IMG/VR virus record: IMGVR_UViG_3300044842_000168
Span: 1-64,000 of that record
DNA from: a virus
Taxonomy: Duplodnaviria; Caudoviricetes
Strand: one strand, 5' to 3'
Length of the DNA: 64,000 bases
Under the pieces are notes generated by a model, which made no database searches, was not told the origin of the DNA, and worked only from the letters and a program-made list of their open reading frames with translations. Both the position numbers and the translations under genes were made by a program. Below are positions 3,721 to 63,741 of the stretch, piece by piece (position 1 is the first letter of the stretch; each line of letters begins with the position of its first letter).

Positions 3721-3794
3721 TGCGGGGTGGAGGAGCTTGGTACCTCGCTGGACTCATAATCCAGAGATCGCGGGTTCAAATCCCGCTCCCGCTA
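3721..3794 (+). tRNA. tRNA-Met(CAT), initiator-like
   Basis: TGCGGGGTGGAGGAGCTTGGTACCTCGCTGGACTCATAATCCAGAGATCGCGGGTTCAAATCCCGCTCCCGCTA; resembles actinobacterial fMet tRNA; 1:72 mismatch; no encoded CCA. Confidence 0.9.
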
Positions 3795-3959
3795 CGACTA
3801 CGCCCCCGCGTAGCCACGTCCCTGTCCGGGGACTCCACGCCCTCGAATCCAGCCAGAAACGGACGGTGGCTGGTGAGTAAGGGCAAGCAGGACGGATTGG
3901 TTAACCAGACCGTACCGTCCACGGGCCGGCGTGCTCCGCTTCAGGTCGCCGGCCCACTT

Positions 3960-58832: not shown

Positions 58833-59306
58833 TTATGCCGAAACCTTGTAGGCCAGACATTCGACCTTGACCTGGATATACTGCTCGCTGAACAGCTCTT
58901 CCATCCCGGGCATGGGCGTCAGGCCCTCGGTTGCGTCGTGGACGCGAAAGCCGGGGATCAGCGTGTACCCTTCGTCCCCCAGCTCGATGAAGCACTTTCG
59001 GATGACGCCGTCGATCGCGTTGGCAGCGAGAAACACCAGATCCTTCTTATCCAGTGCATCCTTCTCCAGCTCTCGTGACGCGGTCCAGGTGTAGACGCAC
59101 CTATTAACTTGTAGGCCCTGGAATGCGTAGATGATGTGGCCGTGCACCAGGTCACGGAGCCCGGTTATGTGGTACGCAGCGTACCTCGGTCGCGGTGAGC
59201 CCTCCTCGTACTGTTGCATCACGTACGGTCTGTGGCTTGCCACAGCGTCGTGCGGGAGGTCGTGCACATCACCGTTCCTCGGACCTCCTACCAGCAACAC
59301 CCTCAC
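58833..59306 (-). CDS. hypothetical protein
   Basis: VLLVGGPRNG motif; GGAGG RBS, GTGA coupling. Confidence 0.65.
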   Translation of the reverse strand: MRVLLVGGPRNGDVHDLPHDAVASHRPYVMQQYEEGSPRPRYAAYHITGLRDLVHGHIIYAFQGLQVNRCVYTWTASRELEKDALDKKDLVFLAANAIDGVIRKCFIELGDEGYTLIPGFRVHDATEGLTPMPGMEELFSEQYIQVKVECLAYKVSA

Positions 59307-61174
59307 AGCATCCTCCTCTCCAGCACAGCCTTCTGCACTGCGTCTGCGGTCAGGTTCCCGGCAGCGATCCGTTCCTCCACGGTGTTCCGCGACCGGAGGT
59401 AGTAGTACGTGACCGGGCGCGGCCGGCTCACGCGGTGGATCCGGTCCTCCAGCTGTTCCTGGTCGTCCGGCACCCATGTCTCGTCACAGATGATCATCTC
59501 GTCTGCGAGGTCGAGGGTGATTGCCACGCCGCCGGCCGTCGTGTTGATGAGCATGATCCGCCGGCCGCCCTCATACTGGAACTCCTCGACAGCGGCCTGC
59601 CGCCGGCTACCGGTGATCTTCCCGGTGATGCGGAGAGGATCGATGCCGGACTTCAGGTAGATCTGGGAGGCAATCCAGTCGATGACGGTGGTGAACTGAG
59701 AGGCGATCACGATCTTGGAGCCGGCTACCGGGTCGTCCAGCATCCCGCGTTCGTCCAGCGCCTCCAGTATCCAGGCGAGCTTGTTGCTGGGCGCTGCCGG
59801 CTCGAAGTTTCCAGCTTCGTCGTACCGACCGAACGCCGAGGCGAACTGGCGGAGTCGGGTGTACTCCGCTAGCACCCCTACCGCGTCCAGCTCACCATTC
59901 TCGATCCGGGCGCGGGCCGTCTTCTCCATCGAGGCGTACGCCTTCGCCTGCTTCGGCTCCATATCCAGCCATACGCCGACCGGGCCGTCTCCACCACCGA
60001 GCGGCTCGCCCGCGTACGTCTTGGGCGGGAGATCAGGGGCGACCTCGGCCTTGGTCCGCCGAAGCATCAGCCCCTGCAGGCTCTCACGAAGCTCGGGCAA
60101 GCGGTCGGCCCTTGGGCCGCCGATGACCTCCCCGAAGCCGTTGGAGGTGACTTCGAAGAAGCGCTCTTTCCACGCCGTGAAGCCTCGGTAGCGGTCCGGG
60201 TCCAGCCAGTTGAGCGTGCCGAAGAGGTAATGCGGCTTACCGCGCATGGGCGTACCTGAGAGAGCCACGCGCAGGCCATTAGGGGCCAGCCGAAGCCGCA
60301 CGGCACCCTCTCTCGCGAGCGTCTTCCAGCCCGAGGTCCGACACAGCACGCGGTGGCTCTCATCGATGATGATGGCGCCCCACTCGCGGGCGAACAGCTC
60401 CGGCCACCCATGCTCGACCTCGACGCGGACCTTCTTGGGGTCGTGGCCACAGTCCACCACACTCGACTTCGGACGGTCTGTGGCGCGCCACCGGCTTCCG
60501 CAGAAGCGACAGACCCAATCCACCTTCGTCCGCAGCATCTCTGGATTCACGATGATCCAGCTGTAGGGATGGTGAATGGCGGCCTCGGCCTCTTCAGCGA
60601 ACTGCTTCAAAGCCCACTCGCGAATCGGCCGGCTTCCCGCGATGGGGATTACTCGGTGCGTTCCGGAAGTCCACCGTTCGACCTCGCCGGGCCACACAGC
60701 GGTCACGGCGGTAGCCGGCGCCACGACCAGATATGGCCCAGGTACGCCCGACTCGATCACCCCGCCTATGGATTGGATGGTCTTGCCGAGACCGGGCTGG
60801 TCCGCGAGCAGCGCCCGGCGTGAGTCCGCCAAGAACCGGATTCCCACTCGCTGGTACGGTCGCGTCGCGGTGGCTTGGCGGATCGCGCCGGGTGACCGGG
60901 GCAGCAGGAGCGTCTCTCCTGTGGAGCCGGCGAGGTCGGTGAAGTAGGCCGTCTTGGCGCGCTCGGCCTTGGCCCAGGCCCACAGCCGGCGCCCGATCTC
61001 CAGCCCATCGCCGAACACCTCGCGCGTCGCCAGGCAGGAAGCCATAGACAGCGGAACGCTCCAGACGCCTCGCTTGTTGCTCCAGTAGGCGCCTGGAATC
61101 CGCTCCTTGAGTCGGATGGGGCGCTCGGTGGTGATGATGATGCGCTTCCCACCCAGCTCCGCGCGAGCCCTCAT
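59303..61174 (-). CDS. SNF2-family (SF2) helicase
   Basis: DQPGLGKT, IIDESH, LSGTPM, GGVAITL, QLEDRIHR. Confidence 0.92.
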   Translation of the reverse strand: MRARAELGGKRIIITTERPIRLKERIPGAYWSNKRGVWSVPLSMASCLATREVFGDGLEIGRRLWAWAKAERAKTAYFTDLAGSTGETLLLPRSPGAIRQATATRPYQRVGIRFLADSRRALLADQPGLGKTIQSIGGVIESGVPGPYLVVAPATAVTAVWPGEVERWTSGTHRVIPIAGSRPIREWALKQFAEEAEAAIHHPYSWIIVNPEMLRTKVDWVCRFCGSRWRATDRPKSSVVDCGHDPKKVRVEVEHGWPELFAREWGAIIIDESHRVLCRTSGWKTLAREGAVRLRLAPNGLRVALSGTPMRGKPHYLFGTLNWLDPDRYRGFTAWKERFFEVTSNGFGEVIGGPRADRLPELRESLQGLMLRRTKAEVAPDLPPKTYAGEPLGGGDGPVGVWLDMEPKQAKAYASMEKTARARIENGELDAVGVLAEYTRLRQFASAFGRYDEAGNFEPAAPSNKLAWILEALDERGMLDDPVAGSKIVIASQFTTVIDWIASQIYLKSGIDPLRITGKITGSRRQAAVEEFQYEGGRRIMLINTTAGGVAITLDLADEMIICDETWVPDDQEQLEDRIHRVSRPRPVTYYYLRSRNTVEERIAAGNLTADAVQKAVLERRML

Positions 61175-61176
61175 GG

Positions 61177-61692
61177 TTACACCTTCTCCAGATATCCGCG
61201 CCGCTCCAGCTCCTCCTGGAGCTTCGAAACCCTATCGGACACCTGAGCGATGTCGGCCTTGCGCTCAACGTTCTCCTTGCGCAGCTTCTCCACGCGGCGG
61301 TTCAGGATCTCTTGCTGCTGCGCCAGCATGGCTTGCCGGTTGCGCATCTGTCGAACCTCTTCGCGTGTCAGAAGCTGGATATCAGTTCCCTCCAGGATCT
61401 CCTGGGCACGCTTGATCCGGCGCCGGGCGCGAATCTGTTGCTTGTGCGAAAGCCGGTCGTGCTCCCGAGCCTCCACCATCCGGTATCCGACGCCTCGGAC
61501 GTTTTCCAGCGTTCGCTTGTGCGATCGCTCCAGCTCACGAACGGCGCGCCCGACCGGGATGTACACACCACGTCGCGGAAGCTTCAGGATCTTCTGCAGC
61601 CTCTCGAACTTGATGACATCGCCGATATCCATCTTGGCAATGACCTCATAGACCAGCTCCCACTGGCTTTTCAGGCCCTTCGGCTCAAACAT
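61177..61692 (-). CDS. winged-helix-like plus coiled-coil protein flanking the GGY-NN array
   Basis: 171 aa; AVRELER..KRTLENVRGVGYR wing-like motif followed by a long helix. Confidence 0.7.
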   Translation of the reverse strand: MFEPKGLKSQWELVYEVIAKMDIGDVIKFERLQKILKLPRRGVYIPVGRAVRELERSHKRTLENVRGVGYRMVEAREHDRLSHKQQIRARRRIKRAQEILEGTDIQLLTREEVRQMRNRQAMLAQQQEILNRRVEKLRKENVERKADIAQVSDRVSKLQEELERRGYLEKV

Positions 61693-61726
61693 ACCATATT
61701 CCTGTCAACAGTCGGTTTGGGATCCC

Positions 61727-62261
61727 CTGCCCTGCCTAGCCCCACCCTGCCTAGCCTCGCCGTTCCGCGCCTGACCCGGCCAGTTCCATGCCAGACCCAG
61801 CCCCGCCGGGTTACGTGCCCGGTAGAGGTATGACCCTCTACCGGGCTCCATGCCATGCCCTGCTCCGCCGCGCCCTGCCCCGCCTTGCCTAGCCCGGCCC
61901 TGCCCGGCCGCGTTTACGCGCTCCATGCCTTACCGAGCCATACCGTTCCTTGCACCGCCTTGCCGTTCCATACCGGACCCGGCCCTGCCTCGTTGCGTGG
62001 CCCAGAGAGTTTCGAGGCTCTCTGGGCCTCCTTGCCTTACCGCGCCCGGCCCTGCCGAGCCCAACCTGGCCGCAGCCACACCGCGCCGAGCCGAAGCCGA
62101 ACCGCGCCGCGCCAGAGCTTGCCATGCCCCGCCGAGCCGCGCCCCGCCGAGCCTTGCCTTGTAGCGTGGCTCGGGGAGTTTCGAGGCTCCCCGAGCCTTC
62201 CATGCCCTACCTTGCCACACCGATCCGCACCCAGCCCTGCTGTGCCGAGCCTCGCCTTGCC
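61727..62261 (-). repeat. GGY-NN pentamer array (78 units, 5 segments) split by hairpins; putative guide-RNA array
   Basis: minus strand reads GGCAA GGCGA GGCTC GGCAC...; 69 of 78 units start GGC or GGT; 30-nt hairpins at 62168-62197, 61999-62028, 61817-61846. Confidence 0.88.
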
Positions 62262-62268
62262 GCGTGAG

Positions 62269-62859
62269 CTATTCGCCGAGCAGCTCGACCTTGGCGTCGA
62301 ACCGCCCGTACATCCGGCGGAAGTCGCCGAGGCCCTCGAACCGGCCAGCGTCGGCGGCGATCCGCTCGAACTCCTCCAGCTCCATGATGGAGTAGTCCAA
62401 CACGAAGTCGGCGGTGAACTCCCACTCCGGGAACCACGGGCGGCAGCGTTCCACGCGCTGCTGGCCGATCCGGACGGTGCGGTAGTCCACGAAGGGAGAC
62501 TCGCCGTCGCCCCACAACGCCTCCTTGTCGCGCGGGCCGGCGTAGAACAGTGGGGCCTGGAACGTCTCGATGGACAGCCCGCGCTCGATCTTCTTCCCGT
62601 TCTTGGTGATACGGGCGCCTCCCAACAGGCAGGCGAAGATGTTCTCGCCGGGGATGTAGGGGCCGATCTCCTCGTCGTAGTACAGCGCGGCCTCCCAGTC
62701 GATCCGCGCCATGGCGGCCCGATCCTCGTCGGTCTTGGTGCGCTTGGAGCTGAACTCCTTCATCGCCTTCGCGAACTTGTTGCTGGGCGAAGCCGCCTGT
62801 GCGCTGTGCATCAAGAGCGGCCGAGTCCCCTTGCCGGTGAGCCTTACCCTGTTCTCCAC
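62269..62859 (-). CDS. small RAMP/Cas7-like (RRM-fold) protein, candidate Vipr-type effector
   Basis: VRLTG...PLLMH, YIPGENIFACL, WEFTADF, C-terminal Gly-rich loop AGRFEGLGDFRRMYGRF. Confidence 0.75.
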   Translation of the reverse strand: MENRVRLTGKGTRPLLMHSAQAASPSNKFAKAMKEFSSKRTKTDEDRAAMARIDWEAALYYDEEIGPYIPGENIFACLLGGARITKNGKKIERGLSIETFQAPLFYAGPRDKEALWGDGESPFVDYRTVRIGQQRVERCRPWFPEWEFTADFVLDYSIMELEEFERIAADAGRFEGLGDFRRMYGRFDAKVELLGE

Positions 62860-62896
62860 TGCGTTCCCCTTCTCACAAGGAATTGCAACTGAATTG

Positions 62897-62926
62897 AATA
62901 TAGTCGGTAGACGGATTCGCGTCTAC
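62897..62926 (-). promoter_or_regulatory. TAGACG-type promoter/operator for the RAMP gene and array
   Basis: GTAGACG-gattcg-CGTCTAC at 62907-62926; TAGACG-N17-TATATT. Confidence 0.8.
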
Positions 62927-63417
62927 CTCACCGGGCTACTCCCGTTCTCATCCAACGGCCTGCCCTTGCCCCACTCGGGGCCCAGCTTCTTCGCCTCGGC
63001 CCACTCGATGACGGACGGCGGGTTGAGGTCGCGGGACAGCGCCCGGAACCGGCTGTAGAGACTTTCCCAGGCTGAGAGGTGCCGGACCTTGACCCGGGAC
63101 ATCTTCGCCGCGAGGGCGGCGCGGATCATCTCCGCCTCTTGAGCGCTGACGGCCACCTGGGCGTTGTCGGCTGGCTCGGGCTGCTCCTCGGAGCGGACCG
63201 AGAGGGCGTCGGTGAACACCCTCTCCATGCCAAGGATGCGCCGGATCAGCGAGGCCTGGCCGAGACCACCCCAGGTGATCCTCGCCTGCTGTACGGCCAA
63301 ATGCAGGCCCTCGATGTCCTCGTCTGACAGGGCTATCACGGTGGAGTCGGGCGGGATGTCCACCCCGCCCCGCAGCGTCAGTGGCTTCGCGGCCCGGTTC
63401 CACAACAAGATCTTCAC
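62923..63417 (-). CDS. hypothetical protein
   Basis: 164 aa, AAGGAGG RBS. Confidence 0.7.
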   Translation of the reverse strand: MKILLWNRAAKPLTLRGGVDIPPDSTVIALSDEDIEGLHLAVQQARITWGGLGQASLIRRILGMERVFTDALSVRSEEQPEPADNAQVAVSAQEAEMIRAALAAKMSRVKVRHLSAWESLYSRFRALSRDLNPPSVIEWAEAKKLGPEWGKGRPLDENGSSPVR

Positions 63418-63440
63418 GCGTCCTCCTTCGGGACGTGGGA

Positions 63441-63471
63441 CACCCGGGCTGGCCGCGAACCAGCCCGGGTG
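63441..63471 (-). terminator. hairpin terminator
   Basis: CACCCGGGCTGG / CCAGCCCGGGTG. Confidence 0.55.
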
Positions 63472-63477
63472 CAGGAA

Positions 63478-63741
63478 CTACTGTACGGAAGTGATGGCGG
63501 AGAGACGAACCGACCGGACCCCCGACGCGGCGGCCGGGAAGGTCAGCACCCCATCTTCGATCTTGATGGAGTGCGTCTTCTCCATGACGCGCTCGGTCTC
63601 CTCAGCGCCCGAGATGCCGTTGATCCAGGTGATCTTCCGGCCGGCGAAGTCGTTGGGCACGGCGTCAGCGACGTCGAACGCCGGGCGCTTCGCCGCCGGG
63701 CGCGACTTCGTTGGCTTGATGGCGCGCTCGGCGCGCTTCAC
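63478..63741 (-). CDS. hypothetical protein
   Basis: 87 aa with biased codons. Confidence 0.65.
   Translation of the reverse strand: MKRAERAIKPTKSRPAAKRPAFDVADAVPNDFAGRKITWINGISGAEETERVMEKTHSIKIEDGVLTFPAAASGVRSVRLSAITSVQ

What the first reader, a model, noticed from the sequence alone, without database searches (positions are those of the whole stretch)
61727..62926. RAMP-like gene plus GGY-NN repeat array: candidate phage-encoded programmable RNA-guided (VIPR-like) system
Seen: 7 nt after the stop codon of a 196-aa gene, the minus strand becomes an almost uninterrupted run of 78 five-base units (three carry one extra base). In each, three bases are nearly constant (GGC/GGT in 69 of 78) and two vary freely. 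The protein has RAMP/Cas7-like features: N-terminal strand with PLLMH, YIPG helix, C-terminal Gly-rich GLGDFR..YGRF loop. Gene and array sit under one dedicated early promoter (62897-62926), with no cas1/cas2 or nuclease nearby. Knowledge: Cas7-type RAMPs polymerise along guide RNA with a fixed nucleotide period. This layout matches my recollection of recently described VIPR systems (RAMP-ancestral protein plus GGY/NN RNAs whose NN pairs spell a gapped dsDNA target); I could not verify that here. Inference: one subunit binds each GGY and the NN pairs encode targets, probably for transcriptional interference against competing phages or host genes.
Basis: partly seen in the sequence, partly recalled or inferred. 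Interest (0 to 1): 0.96.

Follow-up and report, generated by a model that had tools for sequence, protein, structure and literature searches.

The report
VIPR RNA-guided system in an actinophage
This soil phage carries a complete copy of the recently published VIPR system: a small Cas7-like protein, a long array of GGY-NN guide RNAs and a helper gene. It is a genuine but no longer novel kind of RNA-guided DNA silencer, and its targets are still unknown.

Summary
The 196-aa ORF (62269-62859, minus strand) matches the solved SUSP1 Vipr protein (PDB 36pp, E 8.6e-29, near full length). It keeps the residues shown to matter in SUSP1. Its model (pLDDT 94.7) resembles Csm3/Cas7 RAMPs. Seven bases after its stop codon begin 77 GGY-NN pentamers. 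GGY carries 1.7/1.9/1.0 bits and NN 0.1/0.05 bits, and all 16 dinucleotides occur. They form 5-6 tracts. Three tracts end in 11-12-bp hairpins, with 6 of 11 pairs covarying. The next gene (61177-61692) is a vap1 homolog (hhalign 95.7% to SUSP1 vap1). The locus sits behind one promoter-like site that carries one of 10 copies of a phage-wide 20-bp operator.

VIPR was published in 2026 (bioRxiv 10.64898/2026.04.26.720920, .720927 and 2026.10.15.759431), so this is a new member of a known kind, most like type II.

Local peculiarities are the array lying between vipr and vap, a 25-unit tract, and plain hairpin tails where relatives have tRNA-like tails. The papers I could search do not mention tRNA-like tails.

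No self-targets were found. No natural targets were found in IMG/VR (exact scans) or in 401 actinomycete genomes (up to 3 mismatches). The host is an unidentified soil actinomycete. This scan had already noted the same stretch in another window.

The parts
62897..62926 (-). Promoter-like site (TAGACG-17-TATATT) overlapping a 20-bp palindromic operator, GTAGACG-N6-CGTCTAC, at 62907-62926
   Evidence: The promoter scan gives 1 site against 0.2 expected. The operator has 10 copies in the window against 0.02 expected.
62269..62859 (-). vipr gene, 196 aa, GTG start with a GAAGGGG ribosome-binding site. It is a RAMP-type protein predicted to bind the vrRNA repeats.
   Evidence: PDB 36pp SUSP1 Vipr, E 8.6e-29. 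PHROG 4652, E 5.6e-52. SUSP1 H17, K33, R39, R138, D177 and R179 are identical; K82 is R and W178 is F. AF2 pLDDT is 94.7. The top 50 Foldseek hits are all Csm3/Cas7. The database gene call of 180 aa (P0001) starts at Met17 and cuts off the conserved first strand.
62202..62261 (-). vrRNA1 guide tract, 12 GGY-NN units
62168..62197 (-). Tail 1: 11-bp hairpin with an 8-nt loop (CCUCGAAA), preceded by GGAA and followed by ACGCUAC
   Evidence: Fold energy -25.1 kcal/mol, z -4.5. Covariation with tails 2 and 3.
62032..62158 (-). vrRNA2 guide tract, 25 units (13 + 4 + 8) interrupted by single C insertions at 62093 and 62072
   Evidence: Tracts of 18-24 units also occur in relatives L010-L012.
61999..62028 (-). 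Tail 2: 11-bp hairpin with the same loop as tail 1, followed by ACGCAAC
   Evidence: Fold energy -23.6 kcal/mol, z -3.6..
61925..61989 (-). vrRNA3 guide tract, 13 units
61909..61920 (-). Weak 4-bp hairpin (CGCG-UAAA-CGCG) after GGA; a degenerate tail or junction between vrRNA3 and vrRNA4
   Evidence: The fold is no better than shuffles, z -0.2.
61850..61909 (-). vrRNA4 guide tract, 12 units
61817..61846 (-). Tail 3: 12-bp hairpin with a 6-nt loop, followed by ACGUAAC
   Evidence: Fold energy -29.3 kcal/mol, z -5.2..
61727..61807 (-). Last tracts: 4 units, a GGA junction with one extra base, then 11 units. There is no hairpin tail, and the tract runs into the vap 5' region.
   Evidence: A tail-less last tract abutting the vap ribosome-binding site is also seen in L010, L015 and L016.
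61177..61692 (-). vap1-like accessory gene, 171 aa, with a conserved N-terminal domain followed by a coiled-coil-like C-terminal part
   Evidence: A homolog follows vipr or the array in 10 relatives. The family profile against SUSP1 vap1 gives hhalign probability 95.7%, E 8.9e-9. PHROG 5926.

Best explanation
The stretch 61177-62926 (minus strand) is a complete VIPR (Viral Interference Programmable Repeat) system of the vipr-vap1 (type II-like) kind. It lies in a ~75-kb lytic-looking actinophage from soil. One operator-controlled promoter is predicted to drive a single transcript that holds vipr, five or six vrRNAs and vap. The vrRNAs are separated at or near their hairpin tails. By analogy with SUSP1, Vipr protomers load one per GGY-NN unit into a helical filament capped by the 3' hairpin. 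The filament presents the NN dinucleotides, which pair with double-stranded DNA reading NN-x-NN-x (one base skipped per unit). The bound filament blocks transcription of the target, and Vap assists. The likely targets are genes of competing phages, prophages or satellites in the same actinomycete host. What is shown here by computation: the homology, the fold, the conserved contact residues, the repeat grammar, the tail structure, the vap homology, the clade-wide locus layout and the absence of self-targets. What is inferred from the published SUSP1 and P. fulva work: transcription, processing, filament assembly, the 1-nt skip rule and silencing.
For: - Protein: it matches PDB 36pp 'SUSP1 Vipr protein', E 8.6e-29, residues 10-191 against 9-189.
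- Protein: SUSP1 itself is hit at 35% identity and actinophage homologs at 42-50%.
- Protein: the SUSP1 residues H17, D177, R138, K33, R39 and R179 are identical. These were tested by mutagenesis or seen in RNA/DNA contacts (paper 10.64898/2026.04.26.720927). K82 is R, W178 is F, and K88 is kept.
- Fold: the AF2 model has pLDDT 94.7. Foldseek's best 50 PDB hits are all Csm3/Cas7 subunits, E about 4e-7, probability 1.00.
- Array: periodicity, information content and uniqueness are shown.
- Array: tract sizes of 12, 13, 12 and 11 units fall in the published 9-16 range.
- Tails: three hairpins fold with z -3.6 to -5.2. Six of 11 pairs show compensatory changes and none is broken.
- Accessory gene: the vap1 homology is shown.
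- Conservation of layout: all nine relatives at 49-56% Vipr identity have same-strand GGY/NN tracts starting just after vipr or lying just upstream of it. These include prophages in Micromonosporaceae, Streptosporangium and Nonomuraea. In seven of the nine a vap homolog follows.
- NN variability: between the homologous loci L011 and L012 (Vipr 87% identical), GGY positions are 89% identical and NN positions 32%.
- Self-targeting: none above the shuffled-guide null, as the paper also reports.
- Transcription unit: no terminator-like site lies inside the locus.
Against: - No expression, RNA-processing or binding data exist for this phage.
- No natural target was identified for any guide, so the biological role (competitor silencing) is taken wholly from other VIPR systems.
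- The tails are plain hairpins. They are neither the SUSP1 pseudoknot nor the tRNA-like modules of the nearest relatives.
- One junction (vr3/vr4) has only a weak 4-bp stem, and the last tract has no tail.
- One tract has 25 units with two 1-nt insertions, outside the published 9-16 range. Some of the array may therefore be degenerate or processed differently.
- W178 (pi-stacking on G2 in SUSP1) is F here.
Confidence: 0.88

Rival explanations
1. This is a functional VIPR, but its guides are aimed at host chromosomal genes (host takeover or regulation of host defence) and not at competing mobile elements.
For: No phage-borne target was found in IMG/VR by exact scans. The operon sits behind the same operator-bearing promoter family as other, presumably early, genes. 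Satellite-encoded vrRNAs that direct Vipr to host REP sites are documented (abstract).
Against: Neither vr1 nor vr4 had a match with 3 or fewer mismatches in 401 actinomycete genomes. The host is unknown, so that sample is thin. All natural phage-borne VIPR targets reported so far are mobile elements.
Confidence: 0.15
2. The system is partly decayed. Vipr is intact but several tracts are relics that no longer give functional guides: the 25-unit tract with insertions, the 4-unit stub, and the tail-less last tract.
For: Eight of 77 units depart from GGY. There are three 1-nt insertions. One junction lacks a stable tail and the last tract has none.
Against: Long tracts (18-24 units) and a tail-less last tract abutting vap recur in independent relatives, which suggests function. 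The paper notes frequent internal degeneracy in working vrRNAs.
Confidence: 0.2
3. The pentamer array is not an RNA guide array. It would be coding sequence (Gly/Ala/Arg-rich ORFs cross it on both strands) or a structural DNA repeat.
For: ORFs of 96-345 aa run through the array on both strands. Public annotation has read such arrays as protein: the first ~105 residues of Trine gp40, and LittleE gp35 on the opposite strand.
Against: A 5-nt period cannot keep a reading frame. Conservation is by nucleotide position (GGY fixed, NN free), not by codon. The hairpins covary at the RNA level. The array is always on the vipr strand next to a Vipr gene.
Confidence: 0.02

Closest known systems
SUSP1 (Escherichia phage) type II VIPR: Vipr (PDB 36pp), vrRNA1-4 and vap1 (bioRxiv 10.64898/2026.04.26.720920 and .720927)
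   Same: The Vipr proteins are homologous (35% identity, E 8.6e-29) with the same RNA/DNA contact residues. Both have GGY-NN tracts of about 12 units followed by a structured 3' tail, a homologous vap1 gene, a phage-borne locus, no cas genes and no self-targets.
   Different: - Gene order here is vipr, then the array, then vap. In SUSP1 it is one vrRNA, vipr, vap1, then three vrRNAs.
- The tails here are simple 11-12-bp hairpins, not a pseudoknot.
- The scaffold is mostly GGC (55 of 77 units), where SUSP1 is mostly GGT.
- One tract has 25 units.
- The host is a high-GC actinomycete.
- The targets are unknown.
Unannotated actinophage and actinobacterial prophage VIPR loci: Gordonia phages MakoManhole gp78/77 and Trine gp41/40, Mycobacterium phage LittleE gp34/33, and prophages in Micromonosporaceae B7E4, Streptosporangium and Nonomuraea
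   Same: These are the closest Vipr proteins (42-59% identity) and vap homologs. Arrays start a few bases after vipr and vap follows the array. The last tract has no tail. The motif CC-ACGC follows the tail.
   Different: Their tails are tRNA-like: an acceptor-like stem stacked on a T-arm with a TTCGA loop and a conserved GG in the linker (33 instances). This phage has none of these, only continuous hairpins that look like the same module with the linker deleted. Most relatives also carry one vrRNA upstream of vipr; this phage does not.
Cas7/Csm3 backbone subunits of type III (and type I, VII) CRISPR-Cas effector complexes
   Same: They share the RRM-based RAMP fold with a glycine-rich loop and thumb (Foldseek probability 1.00, TM about 0.5). 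Their backbone subunits also polymerise along a guide RNA with a fixed nucleotide period (established knowledge for Cas7; shown for Vipr).
   Different: Sequence identity is only 10-16%. There is no CRISPR repeat-spacer array, no cas1/cas2, and no Cas10, Cas5 or Cas6 partners. The period is 5 nt with only 2 bases read, against 6 nt with 5 bases read. The outcome is DNA binding and silencing rather than RNA cleavage.

Membership tests
VIPR system (Vipr + vrRNA), type II-like | Protein homologous to an experimentally characterised Vipr | tested here: met
   PDB 36pp_D SUSP1 Vipr, E 8.6e-29, near full length. tblastn to phiSUSP1 gives 35% identity.
VIPR system (Vipr + vrRNA), type II-like | Minimal RAMP fold: single RRM core, glycine-rich loop, thumb | tested here: met
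   The AF2 model has pLDDT 94.7. The top Foldseek hits are all Csm3/Cas7. The G-loop GLGDFR aligns with SUSP1 GVGDWR.
VIPR system (Vipr + vrRNA), type II-like | Residues that bind GGY and DNA in SUSP1 Vipr (H17, K33, R39, K82, R138, D177, W178, R179) | tested here: met
   Six are identical. K82 is R and W178 is F, both conservative changes (residue roles).
VIPR system (Vipr + vrRNA), type II-like | Adjacent same-strand tandem GGY-NN (YNNGG) repeats with conserved GGY and hypervariable NN, 9-16 units per vrRNA | tested here: met
   There are 77 units, 69 with exact GGY. NN carries 0.05-0.12 bits and 16 of 16 dinucleotides are used. Tracts have 12, 13, 12 and 11 units. One tract of 25 units is out of range.
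VIPR system (Vipr + vrRNA), type II-like | Conserved structured 3' tail after each repeat tract | tested here: met
   Three stable covarying hairpins are present. One junction is weak and the last tract has no tail.
SUSP1 VIPR clade | Pseudoknot tail with the SUSP1 consensus sequence | tested here: not met
   The tails here are simple hairpins unrelated in sequence to the SUSP1 tails. This locus therefore lies outside the SUSP1 clade, though within the family.
VIPR system (Vipr + vrRNA), type II-like | vap1-type accessory gene in the operon | tested here: met
   The 171-aa ORF is homologous to the vipr-adjacent genes of 10 relatives. Its family profile matches SUSP1 vap1 (hhalign 95.7%, E 8.9e-9).
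VIPR system (Vipr + vrRNA), type II-like | Viral context with no cas genes or CRISPR array | tested here: met
   The record is a 75-kb virus, about 92% complete. It has terminase, portal and DnaE genes. Neighbours give no Cas or defence-family hit apart from generic SNF2 helicase-core matches below the curated cut-offs.
VIPR system (Vipr + vrRNA), type II-like | NN strings differ between homologous loci while GGY and tails are kept | tested here: inconclusive
   The sister phage (P0002, 88% identical) could not be fetched. For the related pair L011/L012, GGY is 89% identical and NN 32%. That supports the rule for the clade, not for this phage directly.
VIPR system (Vipr + vrRNA), type II-like | No self-targeting at 80% or more of NN positions | tested here: met
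   The best own-genome scores are 15-18 of 22-26, equal to the shuffled-guide null.
VIPR system (Vipr + vrRNA), type II-like | Natural targets obeying the 1-nt skip rule | tested here: inconclusive
   No hits in IMG/VR for five exact patterns. No hits in 401 actinomycete genomes for vr1 and vr4 with 3 or fewer mismatches. No hits above null in 143 kb of related loci.
VIPR system (Vipr + vrRNA), type II-like | vrRNAs expressed and co-purifying with Vipr; DNA binding and silencing | not testable with these tools
   This needs small-RNA sequencing, pull-down and reporter assays.
CRISPR-Cas class 1 effector (Cas7/Csm3) | cas operon (Cas5/Cas6/Cas10 or Cas8, cas1-cas2) and a repeat-spacer array | tested here: not met
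   No such genes or arrays are in the window. Only the fold is shared.

The most novel reading that the evidence does not exclude
In the actinobacterial Vipr clade the spacers between guides may be tRNA mimics (acceptor stem plus T-arm plus a GG elbow). They would recruit host tRNA-processing enzymes (RNase P and/or RNase Z) to cut long vrRNA arrays into single guides. That would be a natural counterpart of synthetic polycistronic tRNA-guide arrays. In this phage the module would have been reduced to a bare 11-12-bp minihelix followed by ACGC, which still marks the cut site and caps the Vipr filament. Array maturation would then depend on the host, through a route the held VIPR papers do not mention. 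Those papers describe pseudoknot tails and hammerhead ribozymes.
Probability: 0.3. Interest if true: 0.7.

Novelty: new member of a known kind. Interest (0 to 1): 0.45.

Why it matters
- It confirms that a reader working from raw sequence alone can recognise a VIPR locus.
- It adds a well-formed VIPR system from an uncultivated, high-GC soil actinophage to a family characterised so far only in E. coli and Pseudomonas phages.
- It shows features the published type II examples lack: 77 units in one block between vipr and vap, plain hairpin caps, and a 25-unit tract. These bear on how arrays are processed and how filament length is set.
- Current curated libraries (Pfam, NCBIfam, PADLOC) do not model Vipr or vap. 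Public actinophage annotations also mis-call the arrays as proteins, so these loci are being missed or mis-annotated.
- The tRNA-like tails of the relatives give a testable lead on vrRNA maturation.
- The system itself is no longer a new kind of biology.

Tried and rejected
- Pfam, NCBIfam and PADLOC give no family for Vipr or vap.
- Rfam finds nothing in the arrays at E up to 1. ARAGORN calls only one odd 'tRNA-???' in Trine.
- A megablast of the locus against phage records gives no match.
The 77.8-kb contig of the sister phage (P0002) could therefore not be read. The metagenome scan with P0002 returned only 28-52% relatives. The single-protein IMG/VR scan returned nothing.
- IMG/VR exact 1-nt-skip scans of vr1, vr3, vr4, vr5b and the ten tail-proximal units of vr1 gave 0 hits.
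- An IMG/VR scan for this phage's tail signature gave 0 hits.
- Genome scans with 3 or fewer mismatches over 401 genomes of the class gave 0 hits for vr1 and vr4. The reversed-pattern controls gave 0 and 4 hits. Four prophage-bearing genomes gave 0 hits. I did not repeat this for vr2, vr3 and vr5.
- Guides scanned against 143 kb of related VIPR loci scored at null level, so I rejected the idea that they target relatives' vipr genes or arrays.
- Sequencing runs: only soil and rhizosphere metagenome DNA holders were found, and no RNA holder is listed. Laying their contigs gave the source contig only, with no variants in the array.
- Host assignment failed. 
- I considered the SNF2 helicase (59303-61174) as a possible helicase-type vap and rejected it, because it has no homolog in any relative's VIPR locus.
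- I did not run complex prediction, the search of protein representatives or the protein atlas, because the family assignment was already decisive.

Full report
**What is there.** On the minus strand, a 196-aa ORF (62269-62859) ends in TAG. Seven bases later a 535-nt run of five-base units begins (62261-61727).
- GG dinucleotides recur at lag 5 in 77 of 123 cases.
- I parse 77 units, 69 with exact GGY. Information content is 1.73, 1.90 and 1.01 bits at the three scaffold positions and 0.12 and 0.05 bits at the two variable ones. All 16 dinucleotides are used.
- The feature is unique in the 75,134-bp genome. Twenty Markov shuffles gave no run longer than 7 units.

**The family exists and the protein belongs to it.** VIPR systems were published in 2026. 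They consist of a Vipr RAMP protein plus vrRNAs of 9-16 YNNGG repeats with a 3' tail. They read double-stranded DNA with one base skipped per unit, silence competing phages and satellites, fall into seven types, and carry vap accessory genes.
- The ORF matches the solved SUSP1 Vipr (PDB 36pp) at E 8.6e-29 over residues 10-191. It also matches PHROG 4652 at E 5.6e-52.
- In an alignment with SUSP1 and three actinophage homologs, the residues shown to matter in SUSP1 are conserved. H17, K33, R39, R138, D177 and R179 are identical, K82 is R, and W178 is F.
- An AlphaFold2 model (pLDDT 94.7) finds only Csm3/Cas7 subunits among its best 50 PDB matches. That copy of the PDB predates release of the Vipr structures, so this is independent support for the RAMP fold.
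- The database gene call (180 aa, from Met17) removes the conserved first strand. The GTG start at 62859, preceded by a GAAGGGG ribosome-binding site, is the better one.

**Anatomy of the array.** The tracts are vr1 (12 units), vr2 (13 + 4 + 8 units with two inserted C), vr3 (13), vr4 (12), a 4-unit stub and vr5b (11).
- Tracts end in GGCAU/GGCAA then GGA.
- vr1, vr2 and vr4 are followed by 11-12-bp hairpins, then ACGC or ACGU. The hairpins fold at -23.6 to -29.3 kcal/mol (z -3.6 to -5.2).
- Across the three hairpins, 6 of 11 pairs change on both sides and none is broken. The structure is therefore selected at the RNA level.
- The vr3/vr4 junction has only a weak 4-bp stem, and the last tract has no tail.
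- No terminator-like site lies within 61000-63500.
- The only promoter-like site is upstream of vipr. It overlaps a 20-bp palindrome, GTAGACG-N6-CGTCTAC. The operon is therefore wired into a phage-wide regulon and does not have a private promoter.

**The accessory gene.** The 171-aa ORF after the array (61177-61692) is homologous to the gene that follows vipr or the array in LittleE, Trine, MakoManhole and seven metagenomic or prophage loci. A profile of this family matches SUSP1 vap1 (hhalign 95.7%, E 8.9e-9). This makes the system type II-like. The SNF2 helicase gene that starts two bases after vap has no counterpart in any relative's locus. It belongs to the adjacent replication module.

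**Context and relatives.**
- The record is an IMG/VR virus, about 92% complete, 65.9% GC, from soil and rhizosphere metagenomes.
- Its terminase is about 45% identical to those of Streptomyces phages. Its DnaE is about 51% identical to those of Nocardia and Mycobacterium phages. The host is an unidentified actinomycete.
- Ninety-nine homologs were found in the 5.8-billion-protein collection. One is 88% identical, on a 77.8-kb contig. Many are 50-60% identical.
- All nine fetched loci at 49-56% identity carry same-strand GGY/NN tracts beginning a few bases after vipr or lying just upstream of it. Some of these arrays run to about 1 kb, and some include tracts of 18-24 units. Where the contig extends far enough (seven of the nine), a vap homolog follows. 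The hosts include Micromonosporaceae, Streptosporangium, Nonomuraea and a Mycobacteriales MAG.
- The window's layout is therefore typical of this clade.
- Between the closest pair I could read (L011 and L012, Vipr 87% identical), GGY positions are 89% identical, NN positions 32%, and the tails nearly identical. This is the pattern expected of programmable guides.

**Tails of the relatives.** In MakoManhole, LittleE, Trine and the prophages the inter-tract tails contain a canonical T-arm: a 5-6-bp stem with a TTCGA loop. It is closed by an acceptor-like stem, with a conserved GG in the linker.
- There are 33 instances in 12 kb of arrays against 4 in 142 kb elsewhere.
- Nine of 10 consensus pairs covary.
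- Rfam does not call them tRNAs.
- The three VIPR papers never use the word tRNA in their main text, and no paper in the library pairs 'vrRNA' with 'tRNA-like'. I could not see the papers' supplementary figures.
- This phage has no T-arm. Its tail 1 reads like a MakoManhole tail with the linker deleted (GCUCGG...CCGAGC outer stem, UCGA in the loop, the same 3' ACGC). I therefore read its hairpins as collapsed minihelix versions of the same module. That reading is an inference.

**Mechanism.** By homology with SUSP1 and P. fulva, one Vipr binds each GGY-NN unit. The filament is capped at the tail, and R-loop formation proceeds from the tail-proximal units toward the 5' end. The NN pairs read DNA as NN-x-NN-x. 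None of this has been measured for this phage.

**Targets.**
- No guide matches the phage's own genome above the shuffled-guide null.
- No exact match exists in IMG/VR for vr1, vr3, vr4, vr5b or the ten tail-proximal units of vr1.
- vr1 and vr4 have no match with 3 or fewer mismatches in 401 actinomycete genomes.
- No guide matches the related VIPR loci above null.

The targets remain unknown. With an unknown host and thin sampling, this says little.

**Verdict.** Because VIPR is already described, this is a new member of a known kind, with local variations and a lead on guide maturation from the relatives' tails. The same stretch had been noted before in this scan in another window.

Noticed in passing
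L010:1688-2376, L011:5663-6734, L012:5690-6740, L014:5871-6299, L015:5656-5812, L002:1644-3147, L003:3241-4892, L004:4072-4354: The vrRNA tails in actinophage and actinobacterial VIPR relatives are tRNA-like. Each has an acceptor-like stem stacked on a T-arm with an invariant TTCGA loop and a conserved GG in the linker. There are 33 instances, about 97-fold enriched in arrays, with covariation in 9 of 10 pairs. The main text of the held VIPR papers does not mention this.
   Followed up: partly
L004:4085-4400 (Trine gp40 N-terminus); L003:3060-3449 (LittleE gp35, opposite strand); window 62812-62859: There are annotation errors around VIPR arrays. The first ~105 residues of Trine gp40 are a translated vrRNA array. 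LittleE gp35 overlaps two vrRNA tracts and their tails on the other strand. The database call for this phage's Vipr starts at Met17 and loses the conserved first strand.
   Followed up: partly
window 267, 1211, 3351, 4929, 8783, 31029, 34372, 40220, 48626, 62907 (20 bp each): A 20-bp palindrome, GTAGACG-N6-CGTCTAC, occurs 10 times (0.02 expected). One arm doubles as a -35-like box. It is probably the operator of a phage-wide, presumably early, regulon that includes the VIPR operon.
   Followed up: partly
L011:6330-6400 and L012 equivalent: A second, non-tRNA-like tail type is almost identical between the two prophage arrays: a nested hairpin around GGTCGCGAG-CTTGT-CTCGCGACC. One array can therefore mix tail types.
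   Followed up: no
window 61693-61731; L010:2440-2470; L015:5845-5872; L016:5910-5935: The last tract of the array has no tail and runs straight into the ribosome-binding site of vap, in this phage and in three relatives. This suggests that the final guide and the vap mRNA share a processing or translation link.
   Followed up: no
window 59303-61174: An SNF2-family helicase gene starts 2 nt after the vap stop codon. It gives generic helicase-core hits to DpdE/ZorD/DrmD models far below the curated cut-offs, and it is not conserved next to VIPR in relatives.
   Followed up: yes
window 3721-3795: A single tRNA-Met (CAT) gene lies in a region that earlier notes describe as a non-coding cassette of hairpins and tRNA-like folds. 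I did not examine whether it relates to the tRNA-like vrRNA tails of relatives.
   Followed up: no
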